Positions 51,882 to 63,072 of a stretch of 64,000 bases of DNA are shown here, in pieces. Positions within the stretch are counted from its first letter, which is position 1. The number at the start of each line of letters is the position of its first letter. Origin of the DNA: Patescibacteria group bacterium. GTDB lineage: Bacteria; Patescibacteriota; Patescibacteriia; XYB2-FULL-38-15. The stretch lies in contig JBAZJZ010000001.1 of assembly GCA_041650995.1 (NCBI GenBank), forward strand, positions 71,891 through 135,890. Direction: 5' to 3'. The translations under genes were made by a program, and so were the position numbers. The notes under the pieces are model-generated. The model was given only the letters and a program-made list of their open reading frames with translations, did no database searches and was not told the origin of the DNA.

Positions 51882-51910
51882 TTGACAAAATTTTATAGTT
51901 ATGTTATAAA
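51882..51910 (+). promoter_or_regulatory. consensus sigma70 promoter (TTGACA-17-TATAAA) driving the GC-rich ncRNA C; paralogous over about 30 nt to the minus-strand promoter at 18505-18536
   Basis: cTTGACAAAATTTTATAGTTATGTTATAAAAG versus (minus strand) cTTGACAAAATTATTAAAATATGTTAAAGTAAAG. Confidence 0.6.
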
Positions 51911-51916
51911 AGATAC

Positions 51917-52727
51917 GATACGGTGAAATGCCGTAAGCGGCTGGGTCCAAGAGGACGCCTTGGCTCTATCTGGCTCTTCATGCCACTGCGCAATGGATTG
52001 CGTGGTGGAATAATCTCCGCCCGTAAGGGAAAAATTAAAAAGCGAAGAAAGGGAGAAAAAGCGTCAATACCGGGCGCAAACAATCCGGTCTTGGCGCCAT
52101 GAAGATTCAGGAGATCTAAGGAGAGAGGGTTTGATTCCCTCCAGCCGCACTGGGTCTTGGTGGTAGCCGAGCAGCGGATTTCTGCATTGCTCACTGCGAT
52201 GTGGAAGGCCGACGGCAGCCATTGTGGGGTACGCGCTGCGAACCCCGCCATCAAGGCCAAAGATGGCGACTGACCTTGAATGGCAGTCGTCGATTCCTCG
52301 CTGACCTTCAAGAGTTGGCGAGCAGGGACTCTCTCTGCCAAGGGAGGGTCCGCCTGAAGCTTCCGCGAGCCTCGGCTCGCGTTGGCACAAAGTTGCGATC
52401 GCACAGCTCTGGTCATGGCTACCATGGGGATTTCCCCGAAAGCCTAAGTGCGATCGCGGCTCGCGACGTTCCATAGGGAGACGCTCGCGTTTCCTGAAGT
52501 TTCCCAGTCTCGTGCTGGGCGGAACGGCGCGGAATTTCAGCCCCCGGCGGACTTGCCCGCGCGATGGCGCTCGCATGCGTGAGCACGCGAAAAAGGCAAG
52601 TGTGGGTACCCCGGCTCTTCTGCGCCGCCCAGAAGAGCCACTTCAAAAGATCCTCTAAGCGCAGTTCGCTGCGCGGAGAGGTCTGCGATACGCGCCGTGA
52701 TGATTCATTCGTCACGGCGTTCTTTTT
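51917..52727 (+). ncRNA. candidate large structured ncRNA C (about 810 nt), GC-rich, with an embedded tRNA-like acceptor/T-arm domain; identity unknown
   Basis: GC much higher than the genome; only short overlapping ORFs in all frames with junk-like translations; 5' GCGGCTG (51937-51943) pairs perfectly with CAGCCGC (52142-52148) next to a T-arm GAGGG-TTTGATT-CCCTC; bounded by a promoter and a strong terminator. Confidence 0.5.
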
Positions 52728-53989: not shown

Positions 53990-54017
53990 TTGACCGGGGT
54001 TCGTGTTTTGTTATAAT
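53990..54017 (+). promoter_or_regulatory. sigma70 promoter of the hrcA heat-shock operon (TTGACC-16-TATAAT)
   Basis: TTGACC at 53990-53995, TATAAT at 54012-54017, immediately followed by CIRCE. Confidence 0.65.
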
Positions 54018-54021
54018 GAAA

Positions 54022-54048
54022 CTAGCAGTCCTTGACGTCGATTGCTAA
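54022..54048 (+). promoter_or_regulatory. CIRCE operator (HrcA binding site)
   Basis: CTAGCAGTC-cttgacgtc-GATTGCTAA matches the consensus TTAGCACTC-N9-GAGTGCTAA at 15/18 positions, inverted-repeat arms CTAGCAgTC/GAtTGCTAA; sits between the -10 box and hrcA. Confidence 0.8.
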
Positions 54049-54068
54049 TCGTTGTAAAATAGTTTAAT

Positions 54069-54761
54069 ATGGAAAAACGAAAGGAAAAATTGCTCTTGTC
54101 AGTCATTCACGAATATATAAAAAAAGCCACGCCGGTCGCTTCAAAAATGTTGGCCGGGCGGGGCGGTTTTAAAATAAGTTCGGCAACATTACGAAATGAA
54201 ATGGCAGATTTGGAAGAAGAAGGATATTTGGTCCAGCCGCATACTTCAGCCGGCCGGATTCCAACCGAAGCAGGTTTCAATTTTTATCTCGCCAATCTGC
54301 CGGAAGGAAAACTGGAAGCCGCGGGAAAAGAAAAAAAAGAACTGGAACGGGCGGCGCGGGCAACAGAATTCCCGGAAAAAAATCTGGCTAAAGTTTTGGC
54401 CGAACTTTCCAAAGAGGCCGTGATCCTCGCTTTCGGGAAAAATGATGTTTATTACACCGGGCTTTCCAATCTTTTCGCCAAACCGGAATTCCACGACCAG
54501 GATTTGGTTTACCGGATCGGCGAAGTGGTTGATCATCTGGACGAAATTATCAGTGAAATTTTTGAAGAGACAAAAGAGGAAATAAAAGTTTTAATCGGAA
54601 AGAAAAATCCTTTCAGCGCGGATTGCGGCGCCGTGGTTTCAAGATATTGCGGAAAAAATAAGAAAGTTGGACTTGTCGCCGTCTTGGGACCGATCAGAAT
54701 GGATTATGGAAAAAATATCGCGCTTGTCCGCGAAGTCAAAGATTTGTTAAATAAAATATAA
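54069..54761 (+). CDS. hrcA: heat-inducible transcription repressor HrcA (short form)
   Basis: N-terminal winged helix LLLSVIHEYIKKATPVASKML...SSATLRNEMADLEEEGYL; followed by grpE-dnaK-dnaJ. Confidence 0.8.
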   Translation: MEKRKEKLLLSVIHEYIKKATPVASKMLAGRGGFKISSATLRNEMADLEEEGYLVQPHTSAGRIPTEAGFNFYLANLPEGKLEAAGKEKKELERAARATEFPEKNLAKVLAELSKEAVILAFGKNDVYYTGLSNLFAKPEFHDQDLVYRIGEVVDHLDEIISEIFEETKEEIKVLIGKKNPFSADCGAVVSRYCGKNKKVGLVAVLGPIRMDYGKNIALVREVKDLLNKI

Positions 54762-54763
54762 TT

Positions 54764-55294
54764 ATGGCAGACGATAAACAAAAACCAGAAGAAAAAAAAG
54801 ACGCGGCGCTCTCGGAATTGGAAGCGTGTAAAAAACAAGCTGAAGAATATTTAAATGGTTGGAAGCGGGCCAAGGCGGATTATTTGAATTTGAAAAAAGA
54901 AAATGAAACAGCCAGCGCGGAATTGGCGCAATTTATCGCGGGCGGAATGTTAATGAAATTTTTGCCGGTTTATGATGGTTTGAAGCGCGCATGTCAGATT
55001 ATGCCTTCGACAAGCTCAGGCAATAACTCTTTATCCCCTGAGCGAGCGGAGCGAGTCGAAGGGTGGGCCGAGGGAATTTTAAACATTAAAAAACAATTTG
55101 AAGAAGTTTTTAAAAGTTTTGGCGTGGAAGAAATAAAAACCATCGGAGAAAAATTCAATCCGGAATTTCACGAAGCGATCAGCCGGCAGAAAAAAGATGG
55201 GGTTGAATCCGATATAATTATTGAAGAAGTCGGCGGCGGGTATATGATGAACGGAAAAACGATTATTCCGGCGAAAGTAATTGTCAGCGAATAA
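54764..55294 (+). CDS. grpE: nucleotide exchange factor GrpE
   Basis: Coiled-coil N-terminus, YLNGWKRAKADYLNLKKE, C-terminal beta-domain; synteny with dnaK. Confidence 0.85.
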   Translation: MADDKQKPEEKKDAALSELEACKKQAEEYLNGWKRAKADYLNLKKENETASAELAQFIAGGMLMKFLPVYDGLKRACQIMPSTSSGNNSLSPERAERVEGWAEGILNIKKQFEEVFKSFGVEEIKTIGEKFNPEFHEAISRQKKDGVESDIIIEEVGGGYMMNGKTIIPAKVIVSE

Positions 55295-55316: not shown

Positions 55317-55730
55317 ATGCCAATTATCAAATGGAATCCTTGGGAACAATTTGGAGAGTTAGACAGATTTTTTGAAGAAGGCGCGGGAGGTTTTGTCCCG
55401 GCGTTGGATATTTATCAAACCAAAGACGCGGTCGTTGTTGAAACTCCGCTTGCCGGCATTGATCCGGAAGATGTGGAAATTTCCATTGAAAACGATATCT
55501 TGTCCGTCAACGGAAAAACCGAACGGCAAAGTGAAGTTGATGAAAAGAATTTTTACCGCAAAGAAGTCCGCTACGGAAGTTTTCACCGCTCGGTCCGTTT
55601 GCCGGTCGCTGTCCTTGGCGGCAAAGCCGAAGCCAAATCGGAAAATGGAATGTTGAAAATCACAATCCCCAAAGCGCCGGAAGCGAAGAGCAGGGCGATT
55701 AGGGTGAAAGTGGTGAAGGGGAAGAAATAA
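55317..55730 (+). CDS. Hsp20/alpha-crystallin family small heat-shock protein
   Basis: ALDIYQTKDAVVVETPLAGIDPEDVEISIENDILSVNGK...GSFHRSVRLP...GMLKITIPK alpha-crystallin domain. Confidence 0.85.
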   Translation: MPIIKWNPWEQFGELDRFFEEGAGGFVPALDIYQTKDAVVVETPLAGIDPEDVEISIENDILSVNGKTERQSEVDEKNFYRKEVRYGSFHRSVRLPVAVLGGKAEAKSENGMLKITIPKAPEAKSRAIRVKVVKGKK

Positions 55731-55757
55731 CATTTATTTTTTAATAACTTATAAAAT

Positions 55758-57425
55758 ATGAACTTGCCAGAGCCTCTGCATAAACAATTTTCTAATCTCA
55801 TGGATGATATCCAAACGGGGAGGTTGAAGATACCTCAGTTTCAAAGAGAATTTGTTTGGGATATAAAAAAATCAGCAAGCCTACTCGATAGTATAATTAA
55901 AGGATATCCAGTTGGTACTTTTATTTTTTGGAAAACAAAAGATAGATTAAGATCTGTTAAAGATATAGGCAATCTGAATCTTCCAGAGCCGGCCGTCGGT
56001 GATTATGTTAATTTTGTCTTAGATGGTCAGCAACGAATTACCAGTCTTTTCGCTGCATTTAAGGGAGAAAAAATATTGAGAAGCGATGGAAAAACAGAGG
56101 ATTTTTCAGAAATATATATTGATTTAGACGCGAAGGAAGACGAAAAAATAGTTACTTCAGAGGTTGACGACGGGAATTCAAAAAATTTAATAAAATTAAA
56201 GGATTTGCTATATGGGGGAATTACATTTCTCGCCAAATATCCAGAAAACTACCTGCATAAACTTGAAGAATACAAAAAGAGAATTGAATCTTATAATTAT
56301 TCCGTGATACAGGTTAATGAAGTACCCATAGATGTTGCTACTGAAATTTTTACAAGAATCAATGTTGGTGGTAAGCCACTGTCGTTATTTGAAATTATGG
56401 TTGCAAAGACATATGACTATGACAAAAATTTTGAACTTTCTGAAAAATTTGATGCCCTAGTTGAAAATTTAAAAAATGTTAATTACGAAACTATTTCTGA
56501 TGCAACGGTATTACAGATTATTTCTTTAATATTAACAAAAGAATGCAAGAGAAAAATTATTTTAAAATTGAAGAAAGATGAATTTATTGACAAGTGGGAC
56601 GAAGTTGTAAACGCAATCGAAAGCGCGGTGGATTACTTTAGAAGTTTCTACAGAATTCCTGTTTCGCAGATACTGCCGTATAATGCTTTGCTTGTGCCAT
56701 TTTCATATTTTTTCTACTACCATAAGGACAAACCGACCGGAGACAAACAAAAATACCTTCAAGATTTTTTTTGGCGAGTATCTTTATCCGGTAGATATTC
56801 ATCGTCGGTTGAAAGTAAATTAGCGCAGGACATTAAGAGAATAGATAAAATTTTAGAAGATAAATTACCGGATTATGACTGGCCAATTAATTTATCGCCC
56901 GAATTCATAAAAAATAATGGCTGGTTTAGCGCCGGCAGAAGTTATATAAAAGCAATATTATGTATCTATGCCTATCACCAGCCAAAATCTTTTAACGACA
57001 ACTCACTTGTAAATATTAGTAATTACTGGTTAAAACAAGCGAATAGCAAAAATTATCATCATTTTTTTCCACGTGCCTATTTAAGTAGATTGAATAAAGA
57101 TGAAAAAATGATAAATCATATAGCTAACATAACTATTGTCGACGATTTTCTTAATAAAAGAGAAATTAAAGATAAGCCGCCATCCAAGTACATGGAAAAA
57201 TTTAAAAAAGAAAACCCTCATCTTTCAGAAACAATGAAAACCCACCTGATTAATGATATTGATAATATGGGAATTTGGGAAGATAATTATGAATTGTTTT
57301 TTGAAAAAAGAATTGAATCGATTAGTAAGGATATTGAAAAAAGAATAATCCCACAAGAAATTGATGGGAAACCACAGGCTGATTTATCGGATGATGACTC
57401 CGTAGAAAGTTCAGAACAAGAATAG
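55758..57425 (+). CDS. DUF262 (ParB-like NTPase) plus DUF1524 (His-Me finger nuclease) fusion protein, GmrSD-like type IV modification-dependent restriction enzyme
   Basis: N-terminal IPQFQREFVWD (DGQQR-type DUF262 motif region, LDGQQRITSL present) and C-terminal NYHHFFPRAYL...NHIANITIV HNH-like DUF1524 block; inserted between hsp20 and dnaK. Confidence 0.6.
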   Translation: MNLPEPLHKQFSNLMDDIQTGRLKIPQFQREFVWDIKKSASLLDSIIKGYPVGTFIFWKTKDRLRSVKDIGNLNLPEPAVGDYVNFVLDGQQRITSLFAAFKGEKILRSDGKTEDFSEIYIDLDAKEDEKIVTSEVDDGNSKNLIKLKDLLYGGITFLAKYPENYLHKLEEYKKRIESYNYSVIQVNEVPIDVATEIFTRINVGGKPLSLFEIMVAKTYDYDKNFELSEKFDALVENLKNVNYETISDATVLQIISLILTKECKRKIILKLKKDEFIDKWDEVVNAIESAVDYFRSFYRIPVSQILPYNALLVPFSYFFYYHKDKPTGDKQKYLQDFFWRVSLSGRYSSSVESKLAQDIKRIDKILEDKLPDYDWPINLSPEFIKNNGWFSAGRSYIKAILCIYAYHQPKSFNDNSLVNISNYWLKQANSKNYHHFFPRAYLSRLNKDEKMINHIANITIVDDFLNKREIKDKPPSKYMEKFKKENPHLSETMKTHLINDIDNMGIWEDNYELFFEKRIESISKDIEKRIIPQEIDGKPQADLSDDDSVESSEQE

Positions 57426-57471
57426 AAACGTGATATTTATAAAAAAATAAAAATAATTAAGGATAAAAAAT

Positions 57472-57825
57472 ATGCCAGAAGTAGATAAAGAGACAATGAA
57501 AGAGTTAGATGATTGTATAAAGGAGGCAAACACTTGTCGCACGGAATGTTTTAACACAATTCTCGGATACAAATTTTTTATTGAAGGTATTTTTATAGGA
57601 ATTTTAGGAAATATACTCGCTAATTATATCTTCAATGTCTTTGATACGGGAAGTTTATTCTACTATCTATTTATCTACACAGTTACATTTTTTTTCAGCA
57701 TTTTTCTTTTTAAACATTTTAAGAAAGAAAAATTATTTTCAAAAATGTATTGGGAGTTTGAGAGAAAACAAAATGATTTGGGAAATCTTAAAAAACGTAT
57801 TGTTGTAGAAGATAATAAAGAATAA
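57472..57825 (+). CDS. small two-TM membrane protein of unknown function, co-inserted with the GmrSD-like gene
   Basis: 117 aa; hydrophobic segments FFIEGIFIGILGNILANYIF and LFIYTVTFFFSIFLF. Confidence 0.4.
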   Translation: MPEVDKETMKELDDCIKEANTCRTECFNTILGYKFFIEGIFIGILGNILANYIFNVFDTGSLFYYLFIYTVTFFFSIFLFKHFKKEKLFSKMYWEFERKQNDLGNLKKRIVVEDNKE

Positions 57826-57847
57826 AAAATAAATAATCATAAAAAAT

Positions 57848-59779
57848 ATGCCAAAGATTTTAGGTATAGATCTCGGAACTACAAATTCCTGCATGGCCGT
57901 CATTGAAGGTGGCGAGCCGAAAGTGTTGGAAAATAAAGAGGGCGCGAGAACCACGCCTTCGGTTGTCGCTGTAACAAAAAGCGGCGAGAGAATGGTTGGG
58001 CAAATTGCCAAGCGCCAATCGGTGACAAATCCGGAAAACACGCTTTATTCCATTAAGCGTTTAATCGGCCGGAGGTTTGACGACACGGAAGTTCAGCGCG
58101 ACATGAAAGTTTCACCTTTTAAAATTGTTCAGTCCGGAGTCGGCGTGAAAATAAAAATGTCTGACAAAGAATATTCTCCGCAGGAAATTTCCGCCATGGT
58201 TTTGCAAAAAATGAAAAGCGACGCGGAAGAAAAATTAGGAGAAAAAATAGAGGAAGCGGTAATTACCGTGCCGGCTTATTTTGACGACGCGCAGCGCCAG
58301 GCGACGAAAGAAGCCGGAGAAATCGCGGGCTTGAAAGTGCGCCGAATTATTAACGAACCGACTGCCGCGGCCTTGGCATATGGATTGGATAAAAAGAAAG
58401 GCCAGCAGATTGTGGTTTATGATTTGGGCGGCGGAACTTTTGATGTTTCTGTTTTGGATATTGGCCAGGACACGGTGGAAGTAAAATCCACAAACGGCGA
58501 CACGCATTTGGGCGGCGATGATTTTGACCAGAGAATTATTCAGTGGATTTTGGATGAATTCAGAAAAGATCAGGGAATTGATTTATCAAAAGATAATTTG
58601 GCGTTGCAGAGAATTAAAGAAGCGGCGGAAAAAGCAAAAATAGAATTATCAACCGCCATGGAAACAGAAATCAATCAGCCGTTTATTACTTCCGACGCGG
58701 CCGGCCCGAAACACTTGGTAATGAAAATGACGCGAGCAAAATTGGAAGAGCTGGTCGGCGATTTGGTTCAAGCGACTTTGGAGCCGTGCAAAAAAGCATT
58801 AGAGGACGCGAAGATGGATATTAAAGATATTGAAGAAGTGGTAATGGTCGGCGGAATGACGAGAATGCCTTTGGTTCTCCAGACCGTGGAAAACTTTTTT
58901 AGAAAAAAACCAAACTTGTCGGTGAATCCGGATGAAGTCGTGGCGATTGGCGCGGCAGTTCAAGCCGGAGTTTTGCAGGGAGAAGTCCGCGATATTTTAT
59001 TGCTTGATGTCACGCCATTAACTTTGGGTCTTGAAACCTTGGGCGGAGTGTTGACTCCATTGATAAATAGAAATACTACAATCCCGACTTCCAAATCGCA
59101 AGTATTTTCTACGGCGGCTGATGGACAGACATCAGTTGAAATTCATGTTTTGCAAGGCGAACGGCCAATGGCCTCCGACAACAAAACTTTGGGAAGATTT
59201 ATGCTTTCGGGAATTCCTCCTGCGCCGCGCGGCGTGCCGCAGGTGGAAGTTACTTTTGACATTGACGCCAACGGCATTTTAAATGTGAAAGCCAAGGACA
59301 AAGCGACCGGCGTTGAGCAATCAATTACCATTACCGCGTCAACCGGTTTATCAAAAGATGAAATTGAGCGAATGAAAAAAGAAGCCGAGGCGCACGCGGC
59401 CGACGATTTGAAGAAAAAAGAATTAATTGATTTGCGAAACACCGCTGAGACAATAATTTACACCACGGAAAAAATGTTAAAAGACGCGGGCGATAAAGTT
59501 AAGCCCGAAGATAAAAAAGCGATTGAAGAAAAAATGGAAGCGTTGAAAAAAGTGAAGGATAGTGAAGATAAAGAAGCTATTAAAAAAGCGGCTGATGATT
59601 TAGCGCAAACAGCGCAGAAAGTCGGCGCGGCCATGTATCAGCAGCAACAGCCGCCGCAAGGTGGTCCAGCAGCCGGCGGCCCTTCGACAGGCTCAGGGAA
59701 TAATGATGAAAAAAGAGATGAGAAGAAGGATAATAAAAAAGATAAAACAGTAGAAGGGGAATATGAAGAGGTGAAATAA
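57848..59779 (+). CDS. dnaK: molecular chaperone DnaK (Hsp70)
   Basis: [27 protein letters not shown]-terminal EEVK-like tail. Confidence 0.95.
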
Positions 59780-60856
59780 ATGGCAAAAGATTATTACAAA
59801 ATTTTAGGCGTTTCGAAAAGCGCGTCCGCGGAAGAAATTAAAAAAGCCTTCCGCGAGTTGGCGCACAAATATCATCCGGATAAAAACGGCGGCAACGCTG
59901 ATCAGTTTAAAGAAATAAACGAAGCCTACCAAGTTCTTGGCAATCCGGAGAAACGCCAGCAATACGATCAATTCGGAACCACCTTTGAAAACGCGCAAGG
60001 CCAGGGTGGATTTTCTGGTTTTGACGGCTTCCGGGATTTTTCTGGATTTGCCAATGGTTTTGATATGGGAGATTTGGGAGAGATGTTTGGTTTTGGCGAT
60101 ATTTTTGGCGGCGGGCGGAAGAGGGGGCGAGCAAGCCGCGGCCGGGATATTGAAGTTGAAATGCGCGTTGATTTTCGCGAAGCGATTTTTGGCGCGGAGA
60201 AAATTTTAGAAATGTATAAGCCATCTGTTTGCAAGAATTGCGGCGGGAGCGGCGCTGATCCAAAAAGTAAAATTACCACTTGTCCAAATTGTGGCGGCGC
60301 GGGCCGGGTGCAAGTTGTCCAGCGGACATTTTTAGGAAACATTCAAACCGTCACAACATGTGATAAATGTGGAGGAGTCGGAAAAATTCCGGAAAAAGAA
60401 TGTAGTATCTGCCGTGGCAAGGGCATAGTTCGTGACAGCCAGAAATTAAAAATAAAAATCCCGGCCGGGATTGATGATGGCGAAACAATAAAAATTTCCG
60501 GCGAAGGAGAGGCAGCCGAACACGGCGGAAAATCCGGAGATCTTTTCGTGACGATGCGAGTCGTGCCGGACAAAGAATTCAAAAGAAAGAAAGATGATAT
60601 TTTAAGTAGAGTGGAGATAAATTTTTCGCAGGCGGCGCTTGGCGATAAAATTGAAATAGAAACTTTAGACGGAAAAATTAAATTAACTATTCCAGCCGGA
60701 ACGCAGTCGGGGCAGATTTTTCGTTTGAAAGGGAAAGGCGTGCCGCATTTGAATAGTTACGGTCGCGGAGACCAATTGGTAGAAATTGTGGTGGTCACAC
60801 CGACTAATTTAAACAAGCGACAGAAGGAATTATTGGAAGAATTCGCTGCTAGGTAA
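59780..60856 (+). CDS. dnaJ: molecular chaperone DnaJ
   Basis: J-domain with HPD (KYHPDKN), G/F-rich linker, four CxxCxGxG zinc-finger repeats. Confidence 0.95.
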   Translation: MAKDYYKILGVSKSASAEEIKKAFRELAHKYHPDKNGGNADQFKEINEAYQVLGNPEKRQQYDQFGTTFENAQGQGGFSGFDGFRDFSGFANGFDMGDLGEMFGFGDIFGGGRKRGRASRGRDIEVEMRVDFREAIFGAEKILEMYKPSVCKNCGGSGADPKSKITTCPNCGGAGRVQVVQRTFLGNIQTVTTCDKCGGVGKIPEKECSICRGKGIVRDSQKLKIKIPAGIDDGETIKISGEGEAAEHGGKSGDLFVTMRVVPDKEFKRKKDDILSRVEINFSQAALGDKIEIETLDGKIKLTIPAGTQSGQIFRLKGKGVPHLNSYGRGDQLVEIVVVTPTNLNKRQKELLEEFAAR

Positions 60857-61053
60857 ATTTTATCATTTTAATTGTAAAAATCGTTGCTAAATATCGGCGG
60901 CGGTTTTTTTATTTAAAACTCTTGACAAAACAGAGAAAAAACATTTAAGTATAGTGAGGTTTGCCCAATAGCGGGTAGGCTCGCCTTGCCGTCTAGGCAG
61001 GCTTCGTTCCTTTGAAATTCGCTTCTTGGCCATTGGGCCAAAGGAGAGAAACA

Positions 61054-63072
61054 ATGAAAAAGGTGGTTGTCCTTTTCGTTCTGGTATTCGGGCTCATCCG
61101 AACGGCTTCCGCTTCGGCGGATCAGCCTGCCGATGAGACAGGGGAATCCCAGACCTACCTTGTCCAATGGGGAGATCGGCTGCCTCGGGTGGCAGCGCAA
61201 TTCGGTTTGACCCAGGAAGAGCTTTTGGCAGCCAATCCGCGCTCGGCCTATGGGATGAGCTGCGGTAATCCGCACACAGTCACGTTGCGTAATGGCGAAC
61301 GCCAAGCTCTCTGCGGTCGGCCAAGGCCATACCTCATTGCCGGCAAGACGCTTGTCATTCCCGTGCCCCGCGCCACGCTCCAGACTGAGAGTGTTCGGCT
61401 GAACGCCGAAGTTGTGGCGCTCCGCGCGGAGATGGCTCAATTGCGGAAGGCGCGCGAGACGGAGAAGTCCGAGCTTGCGGCCCTCGCGCAGGAACGCGAC
61501 AATCTCCAGAGCGAGAACGAATCGCTCGTTGCCGCGAAGGCTGAGCTTCAAGGCAAGTACAGCGAATCCCAGGCGGACTTCCGGGCGGTGTTTTCCCGAC
61601 AGCCGAAGCAGATTGAAGTTCAGAAGACGAATTTCAACCACATCGTTTTGGCAGTTGCCGTCACCGCTTTCGTGTTTGTGCTCATCATTCTCGCCATCTT
61701 GTCCCGCAAGGGCAAGAACGAGAAGAAGTTTGATCGCCTTGTCCGGCTTGTCCAGCCGAGCGTTTTGGAACAGGCCGAGAAGAACAAGCAGCGCGGCGCA
61801 GAGCTTGACCAACTAGCGAAGGAACTCGATCAACAGAAGCGAGAGGCAGACGACCTGCAAGCCAAACTGCAAGAGCAGAAGAGCGAGCAGGAGCGTTTGG
61901 GCAATGATCTTGCGACGCGCGAGGCAACCCTGAAGCGGGAGCAAGAAGAACTTGCCACGGCGAAGCGAGCCGTGGAAGAAAGGGAAGCTTTCTGCACCCG
62001 CCGTGATGACGAAATTCATGAAGCCGAGCGCGGACTCCTGGAACGCAGCGAAGCTTTCCGCGGGCATGTCCGGGCCGAAGAAGAACGCCTGAGAACAGAG
62101 AGCGTTGCTGTCGCGCGCGGCAAGGAAGAATTCCTTGCTGCACAGCGCGATCTGGAAGAGAAGAGAGCGCAGGTTGAAGCTGGATTGCGGACTCTTGAAG
62201 AAGATAGTCCCGCGATCCAGAGAGACAGGGAAGAAGCTGATCGGCGCGTCAGAGAAGCCGAGACTCGCGAGGAGAGTGCGAAGCGCGCCGCGGAAGACGC
62301 GGCGCAACGCGTCAGAGAAGCCGAGACTCGCGAAGCTGCGGCCACGAGACAGACAGAAGAAGCAGAAAGTCGAAAGGGCGCCGCAGACGAAGCAGAGAGG
62401 ATTCTCGCTCGCCGCGAAGAGGAAGTTGGGGGCAGGGAAGAAGAACTGCACCGGCTTCAAGATCAACTGAGACAGGAACGAACCGACTTCGAAGGGCAGC
62501 TTGGAGCGGCAGAACATACGCTTGAAGCTGCTGGCGGACTTGAGAAGGCAAAACGCATCATCAGCCGCGCCAAGCGCAAGGAAGAAATTGTTGCGGCTCT
62601 TGATAAGCGGGAGGTAGCTATTGCCGACCGCGAAGAAGTGTGCGCCCACCGCGAACACGAACTCGCCCTTTGGGCAGCGCAACTCGGAGCTCTGGAGGAC
62701 GACACTTCAGACGGGGAGGAAACCGTTCAGCGGCTTACCTTGGGAGCGGATGACACTTTTCAGGACGCCGCTGGGAGCATCACTTGCGCGGCTTGCGGCG
62801 GGAAATTTCCCGATCGCGGCGCGTTCGACGCGCACAAGGCGAGTTGCCCCAAAGCCGCGCCACACACACCGACTATTGTCGGGGCTCCGGCAGGAGGGCG
62901 GGCATCGGTTGTAGCGCCTCCTCCCAAACCGGTCCCGGGTGAGACTGTTCATGACTCTTCGTCGTCTGAACCCGTAGTCTACTGCCAACACTGCAAGGAG
63001 GGGTTTTCTCCCGAGGTCTACGCAGCAGAACACGCAACACACGACGAGGGATTGGCAGGAAAGAAGGGCTAA
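61054..63072 (+). CDS. GC-rich secreted/membrane-anchored LysM - TM - long coiled-coil - tandem C2H2-like zinc-finger protein (compositional outlier, probable horizontal acquisition)
   Basis: 672 aa at about 60% GC versus about 38% for the genome; signal peptide; LysM-like YLVQWGDRLPRVAAQFGLTQEELLAANP...IAGKTLVIP; TM LAVAVTAFVFVLIILAIL; E/R/A-rich coiled coil with repeated REAETRE units; C-terminal CAACGGKF..H....C and CQHCKEGF...H..H motifs. Confidence 0.6.
   Translation: MKKVVVLFVLVFGLIRTASASADQPADETGESQTYLVQWGDRLPRVAAQFGLTQEELLAANPRSAYGMSCGNPHTVTLRNGERQALCGRPRPYLIAGKTLVIPVPRATLQTESVRLNAEVVALRAEMAQLRKARETEKSELAALAQERDNLQSENESLVAAKAELQGKYSESQADFRAVFSRQPKQIEVQKTNFNHIVLAVAVTAFVFVLIILAILSRKGKNEKKFDRLVRLVQPSVLEQAEKNKQRGAELDQLAKELDQQKREADDLQAKLQEQKSEQERLGNDLATREATLKREQEELATAKRAVEEREAFCTRRDDEIHEAERGLLERSEAFRGHVRAEEERLRTESVAVARGKEEFLAAQRDLEEKRAQVEAGLRTLEEDSPAIQRDREEADRRVREAETREESAKRAAEDAAQRVREAETREAAATRQTEEAESRKGAADEAERILARREEEVGGREEELHRLQDQLRQERTDFEGQLGAAEHTLEAAGGLEKAKRIISRAKRKEEIVAALDKREVAIADREEVCAHREHELALWAAQLGALEDDTSDGEETVQRLTLGADDTFQDAAGSITCAACGGKFPDRGAFDAHKASCPKAAPHTPTIVGAPAGGRASVVAPPPKPVPGETVHDSSSSEPVVYCQHCKEGFSPEVYAAEHATHDEGLAGKKG

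What the first reader, a model, noticed from the sequence alone, without database searches (positions are those of the whole stretch)
55758..57825. GmrSD-like type IV restriction gene (DUF262-DUF1524) and a small membrane protein inserted inside the hrcA-grpE-hsp20-dnaK-dnaJ operon
The heat-shock operon is interrupted between hsp20 and dnaK by a 555-aa ParB-like NTPase / His-Me nuclease fusion, typical of modification-dependent restriction systems (GmrSD, SspE, BrxU), plus a 117-aa two-TM protein. The insertion would be co-transcribed from the CIRCE-controlled promoter. A defence nuclease under HrcA/heat-shock control is unusual and may couple anti-phage activity to stress, or simply reflect a permissive integration hotspot.
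Basis: partly seen in the sequence, partly recalled or inferred. Interest (0 to 1): 0.6.

Follow-up and report, generated by a model that had tools for sequence, protein, structure and literature searches.

The report
Restriction gene lodged in heat-shock operon
A horizontally acquired anti-phage nuclease gene of a known kind (GmrSD/BrxU-like) sits between hsp20 and dnaK in the heat-shock operon of a tiny Patescibacteria bacterium, and in this group that position is a general hotspot where each genome carries different accessory genes.

Summary
Two same-strand ORFs (555 aa, 55758-57425; 117 aa with two hydrophobic segments, 57472-57825) interrupt a hrcA-grpE-hsp20-dnaK-dnaJ operon. The operon has one conserved CIRCE-like operator upstream of hrcA.

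The 555-aa protein is a GmrSD/BrxU-like enzyme. Pfam finds GmrSD_N (4e-31), and the SLLDS and DGQQR motifs are present. The predicted fold matches BrxU over its full length (E 1e-13). Pfam does not detect DUF1524 in this copy, only in 5 of 31 close orthologues. A near-invariant HHxFP...N...N motif stands where BrxU has DHIYP.

It is foreign DNA. GC is 0.32 against 0.42-0.47 in the flanks, and only 1 of 73 relatives has it. Homologues 79-92% identical lie in R-M/OLD/Mrr/AbiJ defence islands and in DPANN archaea. The shared DNA is the gene alone, and dN/dS is 0.035.

The 117-aa gene is an independent ORFan, not a partner.

The hsp20-dnaK and dnaK-dnaJ junctions are hypervariable cargo slots across Patescibacteria. 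Co-transcription from the CIRCE promoter is plausible (no terminator, no second CIRCE) but untested.

Verdict: a new member of a known kind in an unusual, permissive location. Adaptive coupling of defence to stress is not shown.

The parts
53990..54017 (+). sigma-70-like promoter (TTGACC-16-TGtTATAAT) upstream of hrcA
   Evidence: 11 of 12 matches, extended -10; conserved in near relatives
54022..54048 (+). CIRCE-like operator CTAGCAGTC-N9-GATTGCTAA. A second promoter-like site (54032-54060) has its -35 inside the spacer.
   Evidence: It is the only CIRCE-like site in the window. A CIRCE is found upstream of hrcA in 64 of 73 relatives and upstream of dnaK in 0 of 73.
54069..54761 (+). hrcA
   Evidence: Pfam HrcA 4.9e-18
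54764..55294 (+). grpE
   Evidence: Pfam GrpE 5e-36
55317..55730 (+). hsp20 (ATG start as called on the source contig; the longest ORF starts at TTG 55281)
   Evidence: Pfam HSP20 9e-19; gene call in L001
55731..55757 (+). 27-bp AT-rich junction from hsp20 to the DUF262 gene, identical in sister genome L015. No terminator-like hairpin.
55743..57428 (+). extent of DNA homology to copies of the gene in unrelated contexts: the gene plus 15 bp upstream and 3 bp downstream (the transferred unit)
   Evidence: blastn; flank comparison
55758..57425 (+). 555-aa GmrSD/BrxU-like gene (DUF262 NTPase, helical linker, divergent DUF1524-like His-Me nuclease)
55791..56408 (+). DUF262/GmrSD_N domain (aa 12-217), including SLLDS (aa 41-45) and DGQQR (aa 89-93, nt 56022-56036)
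57057..57155 (+). putative His-Me finger core: HHFFP (aa 434-438), N453, N457, N466
   Evidence: invariant in 31 orthologues and present in 74-77 of 78 deep representatives. BrxU has DHIYP at the equivalent motif.
57439..57477 (+). copy 1 of a 39-nt imperfect direct repeat (85%), a duplicate of the dnaK leader plus ATGCCA, at the start of the 117-aa gene
   Evidence: family D1
57472..57825 (+). 117-aa ORFan with two hydrophobic segments; independent cargo gene
   Evidence: (dN/dS 0.22 against L014)
57815..57853 (+). copy 2 of the 39-nt direct repeat, at the start of dnaK
57848..59779 (+). dnaK
   Evidence: Pfam HSP70 4e-261
59780..60856 (+). dnaJ
   Evidence: Pfam DnaJ, DnaJ_C and CXXCXGXG
60876..60908 (+). 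intrinsic-terminator-like hairpin plus T-run ending the operon

Best explanation
The 555-aa gene encodes a stand-alone, NTP-dependent restriction endonuclease of the GmrSD/BrxU class, and it probably targets modified DNA (type IV). By analogy with BrxU, the N-terminal DUF262 (ParB-like) domain binds and hydrolyses nucleotide through its SLLDS and DGQQR motifs, and this licenses a C-terminal His-Me finger nuclease (HHFFP...N...N) to cut foreign DNA. The gene arrived by horizontal transfer as a gene-sized unit in the common ancestor of this genome and one sister species. It landed in a slot between hsp20 and dnaK that, across Patescibacteria, accumulates and exchanges unrelated accessory genes. 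The 117-aa membrane-protein gene is a separate and probably older occupant of the same slot. Because the cargo is co-oriented, has no terminator at its junctions, and lies between the operon's only CIRCE promoter and dnaK, it is most likely transcribed by read-through. It would then be expressed at a basal level and rise when HrcA repression is lifted. That coupling is best read as a by-product of a permissive insertion site, not as a demonstrated adaptation. Shown here: domain and motif content, fold similarity, foreign origin, purifying selection and hotspot behaviour. Inferred: enzymatic activity, substrate, defence role and co-transcription.
For: Identity of the protein:
- Pfam GmrSD_N at 4.3e-31.
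- PADLOC PDC-M55C at 2.5e-59 and HEC-05 (which is BrxU) at 8e-37.
- The only PDB sequence hit is BrxU 7P9K, at 7e-12 for the single sequence and 8e-18 for the profile.
- The AF2 model (pLDDT 81.6) matches BrxU at E 1e-13 over 637 alignment columns, followed by DndI and SspE.
- DGQQR, FQRxFxW, HHxFP, N457 and N466 are present in 74-78 of 78 cluster representatives down to about 28% identity.
- PF07510 is hit by 5 of 31 orthologues.

Foreign origin and selection:
- GC is 0.321 (GC3 0.281) against 0.42-0.47 in the flanks.
- Synteny with relatives breaks at 55730-55736 and resumes at 57809-57842.
- Only L015/L096 shares the gene, with an identical 27-bp junction.
- Homologues 79-92% identical lie beside AlwI R-M plus an OLD/AAA_15 gene, AbiJ/Mrr/Eco57I, BsuBI-PstI R-M plus TIR, and C5-methylase/NOV_C/SNase genes. 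Others stand alone in DPANN archaea.
- DNA homology is limited to 55743-57428.
- dN/dS is 0.035-0.041.

Hotspot:
- Gaps longer than 300 bp occur at hsp20-dnaK in 41 of 56 loci and at dnaK-dnaJ in 32 of 42, against hrcA-grpE in 0 of 80.
- Near relatives carry different ORFan cargo, all on the + strand.

Transcription:
- No terminator-like site lies in the three intergenic junctions.
- CIRCE is found upstream of hrcA in 64 of 73 relatives and upstream of dnaK in 0 of 73.
Against: - PF07510 does not match this protein itself, and the sequence alignment of the C-terminus to BrxU is not significant.
- The acidic residue of the (D/E)H motif, which is essential in BrxU (D474A) and in HEC-06 (E471A), is His here. 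Catalysis may differ.
- No member of this subfamily has been tested. PDC candidates are unvalidated.
- TM-scores to BrxU are low (0.41), as expected for flexible multi-domain proteins but still weak.
- AT-rich DNA gives several promoter-like hits inside the insert, so independent transcription cannot be excluded.
- dS between the window and L015 copies (1.35) is about three times that of the flanking genes, which does not fit simple vertical descent after one insertion.
Confidence: 0.72

Rival explanations
1. Adaptive coupling. The defence nuclease has been recruited to the HrcA/CIRCE regulon so that it is induced when chaperones are titrated by unfolded protein, for example during phage capsid production or heat stress. 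This would make the enzyme stress-inducible or infection-inducible.
For: - There is a single CIRCE for the whole operon, and none upstream of dnaK in 0 of 73 relatives.
- Cargo is co-oriented with the operon in all near relatives.
- No terminator separates the genes.
- The arrangement has been kept in two species under strong purifying selection.
- The GroEL-titration model of HrcA control is established knowledge from Bacillus, not tested here.
Against: - The same slot holds unrelated ORFans in other genomes, and only one (L023, weak HEPN_AbiU2 at 4.8e-5) looks defence-like. PADLOC finds nothing specific in the rest.
- None of the other 30 or so homologue contexts examined is a heat-shock operon.
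- A hotspot flanked by highly conserved genes explains the location without invoking selection for regulation.
Confidence: 0.15
2. The DUF262 gene and the 117-aa membrane-protein gene form a two-gene system, for example a nuclease sensor with a membrane effector or an immunity partner.
For: The genes are adjacent and co-oriented, both are AT-rich (GC 0.32 and 0.27), and they are 46 bp apart.
Against: - L015 has the DUF262 gene (92% aa identity) with no 117-aa gene; only 32-40 bp separate it from dnaK.
- L014 has the 117-aa gene (78% identity) behind a different 198-212-aa ORFan.
- DNA homology to other copies ends 3 bp after the DUF262 stop codon.
- The 117-aa protein has just one homologue among 5.8 billion clusters, while the DUF262 family has more than 4800 hits.
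- A 39-nt direct repeat brackets the 117-aa gene alone.
Confidence: 0.04
3. The protein is not an immune nuclease. It could be a nucleic-acid scavenging or DNA-processing enzyme used by an episymbiotic, nucleotide-auxotrophic bacterium, or an NTPase or DNA-binding protein without nuclease activity.
For: - The canonical acidic residue of the DH motif is missing (HHFFP), and Pfam DUF1524 is not detected in this copy.
- The family is enriched in small-genome symbionts, both CPR and DPANN.
Against: - The nearest homologues are embedded among R-M, OLD, Mrr, AbiJ and TIR genes.
- HHxFP...N...N is almost invariant across the family, which argues for a conserved active site.
- The best matches by sequence and by fold are the proven defence enzymes BrxU, SspE and DndI.
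- Distribution among close relatives is patchy, which is typical of defence genes.
Confidence: 0.07

Closest known systems
BrxU (Escherichia fergusonii pEFER; PDB 7P9K/7P9M; identical to PADLOC HEC-05)
   Same: - Single polypeptide of about 555-590 aa with DUF262, a helical linker and a C-terminal HNH/His-Me nuclease.
- xL(F/L)DS and DGQQR motifs are present.
- It is the best PDB match both by sequence (7e-12; 8e-18 with the profile) and by fold (E 1e-13, full length).
   Different: - Only about 16% identity in the structural alignment.
- The nuclease motif is HHFFP instead of DHIYP.
- The gene is not embedded in a BREX system.
- Pfam DUF1524 is below detection.
- Substrate specificity and the dimer-monomer cycle are unknown.
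GmrSD (E. coli CT596 / Eco94GmrSD), type IV restriction of glucosyl-hmC DNA
   Same: Same Pfam N-terminal family (PF03235, named after it), same two-domain logic, and single-gene defence.
   Different: The C-terminal domain reaches PF07510 in only 5 of 31 orthologues. Nothing here indicates which modification, if any, is recognised.
SspE and DndI (phosphorothioate-sensing DUF262-DUF1524 nickases)
   Same: Weak full-length fold similarity (E about 2e-3) and a PADLOC SspE hit at 1.3e-5 on the N-terminal motif region.
   Different: The similarity is far weaker than to BrxU. No sspABCD or dndBCDE genes lie next to it here or in the homologue contexts examined.
PADLOC candidate PDC-M55, component C
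   Same: Best defence-database match (2.5e-59, aa 9-369).
   Different: PDC-M55 is a multi-gene candidate that has not been validated experimentally. Here the gene stands alone, the match does not cover the nuclease end, and no partner genes are present.
Core-gene-flanked defence or accessory hotspots (as described for E. coli and Pseudomonas pan-genomes; from my own knowledge, not checked against those papers here)
   Same: A fixed chromosomal position between conserved genes holds different cargo in different genomes.
   Different: Here the slot lies inside a regulated operon, upstream of an essential chaperone gene. The cargo is co-oriented and mostly small ORFans, not recognisable defence systems. 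No integrase or tRNA is involved.

Membership tests
GmrSD-like type IV restriction enzymes (DUF262-DUF1524) | N-terminal DUF262/ParB-like NTPase domain (PF03235) | tested here: met
   4.3e-31, aa 12-217, above the gathering score; 31 of 31 orthologues
GmrSD-like type IV restriction enzymes (DUF262-DUF1524) | DGQQR nucleotide-hydrolysis motif and xLFDS nucleotide-binding motif | tested here: met
   DGQQR is at aa 89-93 and SLLDS at aa 41-45, the latter aligned to BrxU RLFDS. Both are invariant in A1, and DGQQR is present in 76-77 of 78 deep representatives.
GmrSD-like type IV restriction enzymes (DUF262-DUF1524) | C-terminal DUF1524 domain (PF07510) | tested here: inconclusive
   There is no hit for the window protein even at E<=10. 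Five of 31 orthologues (65-92% identical) hit it, best 9.7e-6. Foldseek aligns the full length to BrxU. The HMMER C-terminal alignment to BrxU is not significant.
GmrSD-like type IV restriction enzymes (DUF262-DUF1524) | (D/E)HxxP His-Me catalytic motif followed by conserved Asn residues | tested here: inconclusive
   The motif here is HHFFP (aa 434-438) with N457 and N466. His, Pro and both Asn are near-invariant, but the acidic residue required in BrxU and HEC-06 is replaced by His.
GmrSD-like type IV restriction enzymes (DUF262-DUF1524) | Modification-dependent DNA cleavage and phage restriction | not testable with these tools
   Needs biochemistry and phage assays.
GmrSD-like type IV restriction enzymes (DUF262-DUF1524) | Patchy, horizontally transferred distribution and association with defence islands | tested here: met
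BrxU subfamily (BREX-embedded) | Embedded in or adjacent to a BREX (or Hma / type I R-M) system | tested here: not met
   The neighbours are hsp20 and dnaK. The homologue contexts examined show type II R-M, OLD, Mrr and AbiJ genes but no BREX.
PADLOC PDC-M55 (multi-gene candidate) | Presence of the partner components together with component C | tested here: not met
   Only component C matches (2.5e-59). The adjacent 117-aa protein gives only noise-level hits. The flanking genes are chaperones.
HrcA/CIRCE regulon | CIRCE inverted repeat (TTAGCACTC-N9-GAGTGCTAA) at the operon promoter, with hrcA encoded in the operon | tested here: met
   The site is at 54022-54048 with 3 mismatches. The position is conserved, with perfect CIRCE in distant relatives and the same variant in the window's clade; 64 of 73 relatives have one.
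HrcA/CIRCE regulon | The inserted genes are part of the CIRCE-controlled transcript | not testable with these tools
   Only indirect evidence: same strand, no terminator-like site at the junctions, and no CIRCE before dnaK.

The most novel reading that the evidence does not exclude
In Patescibacteria, the two junctions flanking dnaK inside the CIRCE/HrcA-controlled operon act as a natural expression slot for horizontally acquired, co-oriented cargo. The cargo would be exchanged by recombination anchored in the highly conserved hsp20 and dnaK sequences. A GmrSD-like nuclease placed there becomes inducible by proteotoxic stress, including the chaperone titration caused by phage protein synthesis. 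That would be an infection-responsive restriction enzyme in organisms that have very few regulators.
Probability: 0.15. Interest if true: 0.7.

Novelty: new member of a known kind. Interest (0 to 1): 0.38.

Why it matters
The gene itself adds little. It is one more uncharacterised branch of the GmrSD/BrxU family, though a large one: 8374 clusters at 50% identity. That branch has an HHxFP nuclease motif that current Pfam models mostly miss, and it is shared at up to 79% identity between CPR bacteria and DPANN archaea.

Two things are more useful. First, the heat-shock operon of Patescibacteria contains two hypervariable cargo slots around dnaK. This offers a defined place to look for accessory and possibly defence genes in genomes where classical islands are hard to recognise. 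Second, it is a natural case in which a restriction nuclease is probably transcribed with chaperones from a CIRCE promoter. That could be tested with existing groundwater metatranscriptomes.

If expression proved to be stress-coupled, it would bear on how minimal-genome symbionts regulate immunity.

Tried and rejected
- Pfam on the isolated C-terminal half at E<=10 gave no DUF1524, and NCBIfam gave nothing.
- I looked for mobile-element signatures around the insert and found none. There is no integrase, transposase or tRNA. The flanks of 10 homologous copies share nothing beyond about 15 AT-rich bases upstream. The 22-nt inverted repeat I3 (55726-55747 / 57437-57458) is AT-rich, has only 82% complementarity, and is absent from other contexts, so I treated it as chance.
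- I tested whether the 117-aa gene is a partner and rejected that idea.
- I tested whether the cargo in relatives is defence-related. PADLOC found nothing, apart from generic protease-domain hits on a trypsin-like peptidase in L018 and a weak Pfam HEPN_AbiU2 hit in L023. The slot is therefore not a recognisable defence island.
- I searched for a second CIRCE upstream of dnaK and found none in 73 loci.
- The idea that the gene is decaying was rejected: both copies are intact 555-aa ORFs with dN/dS 0.035.
- Literature searches for a restriction gene inside a dnaK/hrcA operon found no precedent. The library does not cover all journals.
Full report
**1. What is there**

On the + strand the window carries these genes:
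- hrcA (54069-54761)
- grpE (54764-55294)
- hsp20 (55317-55730; the longest ORF starts at 55281)
- a 555-aa ORF (55758-57425)
- a 117-aa ORF (57472-57825)
- dnaK (57848-59779)
- dnaJ (59780-60856)

A terminator-like hairpin lies at 60876-60908.

Upstream of hrcA there is a near-consensus promoter (53990-54017). It is followed immediately by the window's only CIRCE-like inverted repeat (54022-54048, 3 mismatches; 0.01 expected by chance). In 14 of 14 relatives inspected, a CIRCE sits at the same place. It is perfect (TTAGCACTC-N9-GAGTGCTAA) in distant relatives and takes the same TTAGCAGTC-N9-GATTGCTAA variant in the window's own clade.

The source is a Patescibacteria (CPR) MAG, according to the name NCBI gives the identical protein.

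**2. The 555-aa protein**

Domain and database matches:
- Pfam finds GmrSD_N/DUF262 (PF03235, 4.3e-31, aa 12-217) and nothing else. DUF1524/PF07510 is not found, even when the C-terminal half is scanned alone at E<=10. NCBIfam finds nothing.
- The best PADLOC matches are the unvalidated candidate PDC-M55C (2.5e-59, aa 9-369) and HEC-05 (8e-37). HEC-05 is BrxU, 99.2% identical according to the preprint 10.1101/2024.01.29.577857.
- The only solved structure found by sequence is BrxU (7P9K): 7e-12 with the single sequence and 8e-18 with a profile of 31 orthologues. The match covers the N-terminal and middle regions.
- An AlphaFold2 model built on that alignment (mean pLDDT 81.6, pTM 0.61) matches BrxU over its whole length with Foldseek (E 1e-13, probability 1.00, 637 alignment columns). 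Next come the phosphorothioate-sensing relatives DndI (9JFL, 2e-3) and SspE (6JIV, 2e-3), and then, not significantly, ParB proteins. TM-scores are low (about 0.4). The HEC preprint reports the same problem for this flexible, domain-swapped family.

Motifs:
- BrxU's functional motifs are RLFDS, DGQQR and DHIYP (PMC8565348). Here the corresponding motifs are SLLDS (aa 41-45, aligned to RLFDS), DGQQR (aa 89-93) and HHFFP (aa 434-438). HHFFP is followed by N453, N457 and N466.
- All of these are invariant among 31 orthologues.
- Among 78 full-length cluster representatives down to about 28% identity, the counts are D89-R93 in 76-77, H434 in 77, H435 in 75, P438 in 75, N457 in 77 and N466 in 75.
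- When each of the 31 orthologues is scanned separately, 5 reach PF07510 (best 9.7e-6).

I conclude that the C-terminal domain is a divergent DUF1524-type His-Me finger lying just below Pfam's detection. It has one real difference: the acidic residue before the catalytic His is a His in this subfamily. That residue is essential in BrxU (D474) and in HEC-06 (E471). Membership of the GmrSD-like class is therefore well supported for the architecture and the N-terminal domain, and only indirectly for the nuclease.

**3. It is foreign, selected, and moves as a bare gene**

- Composition: GC is 0.321 (GC3 0.281) for the DUF262 gene and 0.268 for the 117-aa gene, against 0.42-0.47 for the five chaperone genes and 0.419 for the window.
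- Family size: more than 4859 hits in the word-indexed search, and 8374 clusters at 50% identity with E<=1e-3 in the exhaustive search.
- Taxonomic spread: identity stays very high across very distant taxa. It is 79% to an Aenigmatarchaeota MAG, 72% to another archaeon, and 65-69% to Nitrosococcus, Bacteroidales and Paenibacillus. It is about 60% on Roseobacter-group plasmids and 44% on one short (7.7 kb) unannotated record of the phage collection, assembled from a human faecal sample; this was the only strong hit there.
- Contexts of the closest homologues:
  - P0002 (91%) lies next to an AlwI-type R-M system and an OLD/AAA_15 protein.
  - P0005 (86%) lies between an AbiJ-like gene and an Mrr-like gene, beside an Eco57I-type R-M system and a LexA-like repressor.
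  - P0010 (79%, from the same sample as the window) lies next to a BsuBI/PstI R-M system and a TIR protein.
  - P0008 (79%) stands alone beside a split integrase, between housekeeping genes of an archaeon.
  - L107 (84%, apparently frameshifted) lies beside a C5 methylase and NOV_C, DUF2779 and SNase genes. L098 (78%) lies between archaeal gatD/gatE and a V-ATPase gene.
- Boundaries: DNA similarity between the window and all these copies is confined to 55743-57428. That is the ORF plus 15 bp upstream and 3 bp downstream. The flanks of ten copies share nothing else. No integrase, transposase, tRNA or convincing terminal repeat accompanies the gene in the window.
- Selection: dN/dS is 0.035 against L015 and 0.041 against L003, so the gene is functional.

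**4. Comparative synteny**

A GrpE-anchored scan of one genome per species returned 80 Patescibacteria loci with 37-90% GrpE identity. Some of them are mislabelled in their records. I mapped the operon genes in each by tblastn.

- Only the closest relative, L015 (GrpE 90%, DnaK 97%; a Paceibacterota MAG), has the DUF262 gene (92% aa identity). Its 27-bp hsp20-to-DUF262 junction is identical to the window's, which implies one insertion in their common ancestor. The metagenome scan with the DUF262 protein found the same contig and no other heat-shock context among 24 loci.
- L015 lacks the 117-aa gene.
- Contig L014 (DnaK 93%) has the only homologue of the 117-aa protein found among 5.8 billion clusters (78% identity). 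There it sits in front of dnaK and is preceded by a different ORFan of 198-212 aa.
- The two inserted genes are therefore independent. The 117-aa gene evolves as a real gene (dN/dS 0.22), and its dS of 0.51 is close to the 0.58 of the adjacent dnaK.
- In the window, the 117-aa gene is bracketed by a 39-nt imperfect direct repeat (85% identical; 57439-57477 and 57815-57853). The repeat duplicates the dnaK leader and the first two codons, ATGCCA. Recombination between such repeats would produce the L015 arrangement. This is an inference.

**5. The slot is a hotspot**

- In every near relative, homology to the window stops at the hsp20 stop codon (55730-55736) and resumes 6-39 bp before the dnaK ATG (57809-57842).
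- The intervening DNA differs from genome to genome:
  - four ORFs in L016
  - one in L017
  - three in L018, one of them a trypsin-like peptidase
  - one in L019
  - three in L020
  - two in L023, one with a weak HEPN_AbiU2 hit
  - none in L022, L026, L028 or L058

  All of these ORFs are on the operon strand, almost all have no Pfam or PADLOC match, and several are small membrane proteins.
- Number of loci with a gap longer than 300 bp, by junction:

| Junction | Loci with gap >300 bp | Range or note |
|---|---|---|
| hrcA-grpE | 0 of 80 | maximum 175 bp |
| grpE-hsp20 | 2 of 60 | |
| hsp20-dnaK | 41 of 56 | 20-4069 bp |
| grpE-dnaK (no hsp20) | 12 of 17 | |
| dnaK-dnaJ | 32 of 42 | up to 4376 bp |

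- Part of this variation reflects recurrent accessory families. One family of about 110-150 aa occurs in 21 loci, and a DUF3467 protein occurs in 17 loci. The rest are singletons.
- L016 carries an 80-bp duplicate of the hsp20 3' end after its first cargo ORF. This hints that cargo enters by recombination anchored in the conserved flanks.

**6. Regulation**

- None of the 73 loci that have both hrcA and dnaK has a CIRCE within 300 nt upstream of dnaK, whereas 64 have one upstream of hrcA.
- In the window, no terminator-like structure lies in the three short AT-rich junctions of 27, 46 and 22 bp.
- Heat-shock control of dnaK must therefore pass through the cargo. This makes read-through transcription of the DUF262 gene likely, and it explains why the cargo is co-oriented.
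- This remains an inference. The AT-rich insert also contains weak promoter-like matches, and there are no expression data.

**7. Judgement**

Its main identification is right in substance, although its own DUF1524 criterion is met only indirectly. Its 'pair' is not a pair.

Adaptive coupling of defence to stress remains an untested possibility.

One observation is not explained. Synonymous divergence between the window and L015 copies of the DUF262 gene (dS 1.35) is about three times that of the flanking genes. In addition, the window copy is as close to the defence-island copy in L003 as it is to the syntenic copy in L015. Relaxed codon constraint, or a later allelic replacement by recombination, could account for this.

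Literature searches found no precedent for a restriction gene inside a dnaK/hrcA operon. A recent survey notes that small-genome symbionts such as Patescibacteria and DPANN archaea favour compact single-gene defence candidates (PMC12988326). That fits the distribution seen here.

Noticed in passing
window 51905-52727 (+): A GC-rich segment of about 820 nt (0.57-0.59 against 0.42 for the window) with no credible ORF, lying between a yidC-like gene and a Band_7 gene. It has a promoter-like TTGACA...TATAAA at about 51882-51912 and ends in a hairpin plus T-run at about 52693-52727. Rfam gives no match at gathering threshold or at E<=1. MFE is -397 kcal/mol, z about -10 against mononucleotide shuffles. 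Conservation at the syntenic position in relatives L016-L019 is patchy. It is a candidate large structured non-coding RNA of Patescibacteria.
   Followed up: partly
window 61012-63072 (+): A 686-aa ORF with a LysM-like N-terminus, one hydrophobic segment and a long Glu/Arg/Ala-rich, coiled-coil-like region. Its GC is 0.56-0.61, far above the window mean, directly downstream of the heat-shock operon.
   Followed up: no
L015-L094, dnaK-dnaJ junction (for example L035 11668-14225, L070 11019-13572, L082 11758-16050): The dnaK-dnaJ junction is as variable as hsp20-dnaK (2-4376 bp). Recurrent occupants are a DUF3467 protein of about 100 aa (17 loci), a Na/Ca exchanger, and unannotated proteins of 340-430 aa.
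   Followed up: partly
L016 9286-9364: An 80-bp duplicate (93.8% identical) of the 3' end of hsp20 lies between the first and second cargo ORFs of this relative. It may be a scar of recombination-mediated cargo insertion.
   Followed up: no
L011 6001-7674 and L098 4055-5530 (DPANN/archaeal contigs): Copies of the same DUF262 gene, 78-79% identical to the CPR copy, occur in archaea, both times next to Glu-tRNA(Gln) amidotransferase genes (gatCAB or gatDE). This points to recent transfer between CPR bacteria and DPANN archaea.
   Followed up: partly
window 54032-54060 and relatives: In the window's clade the CIRCE spacer contains a TTGAC(A/G) -35 box, followed 17 nt later by TAAAAT. HrcA binding would therefore occlude a second promoter nested inside the operator. 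More distant relatives lack this arrangement.
   Followed up: no
L107 4001-5658: The copy that is 84% identical is split into two overlapping ORFs (342 and 219 aa), which looks like a frameshifted or inactivated copy in a defence-like island.
   Followed up: no
L017, L019, L022, hsp20-dnaK intergenic region: Relatives with little or no cargo share a GC-rich hairpin (for example GTTCCGTGC...GCGCGGAAC) followed by GAAATTTACAAATAATTAAGTATAAAAAATTATG just before dnaK. The window lacks it. It could be an ancestral attenuator or processing element that the cargo replaced.
   Followed up: no
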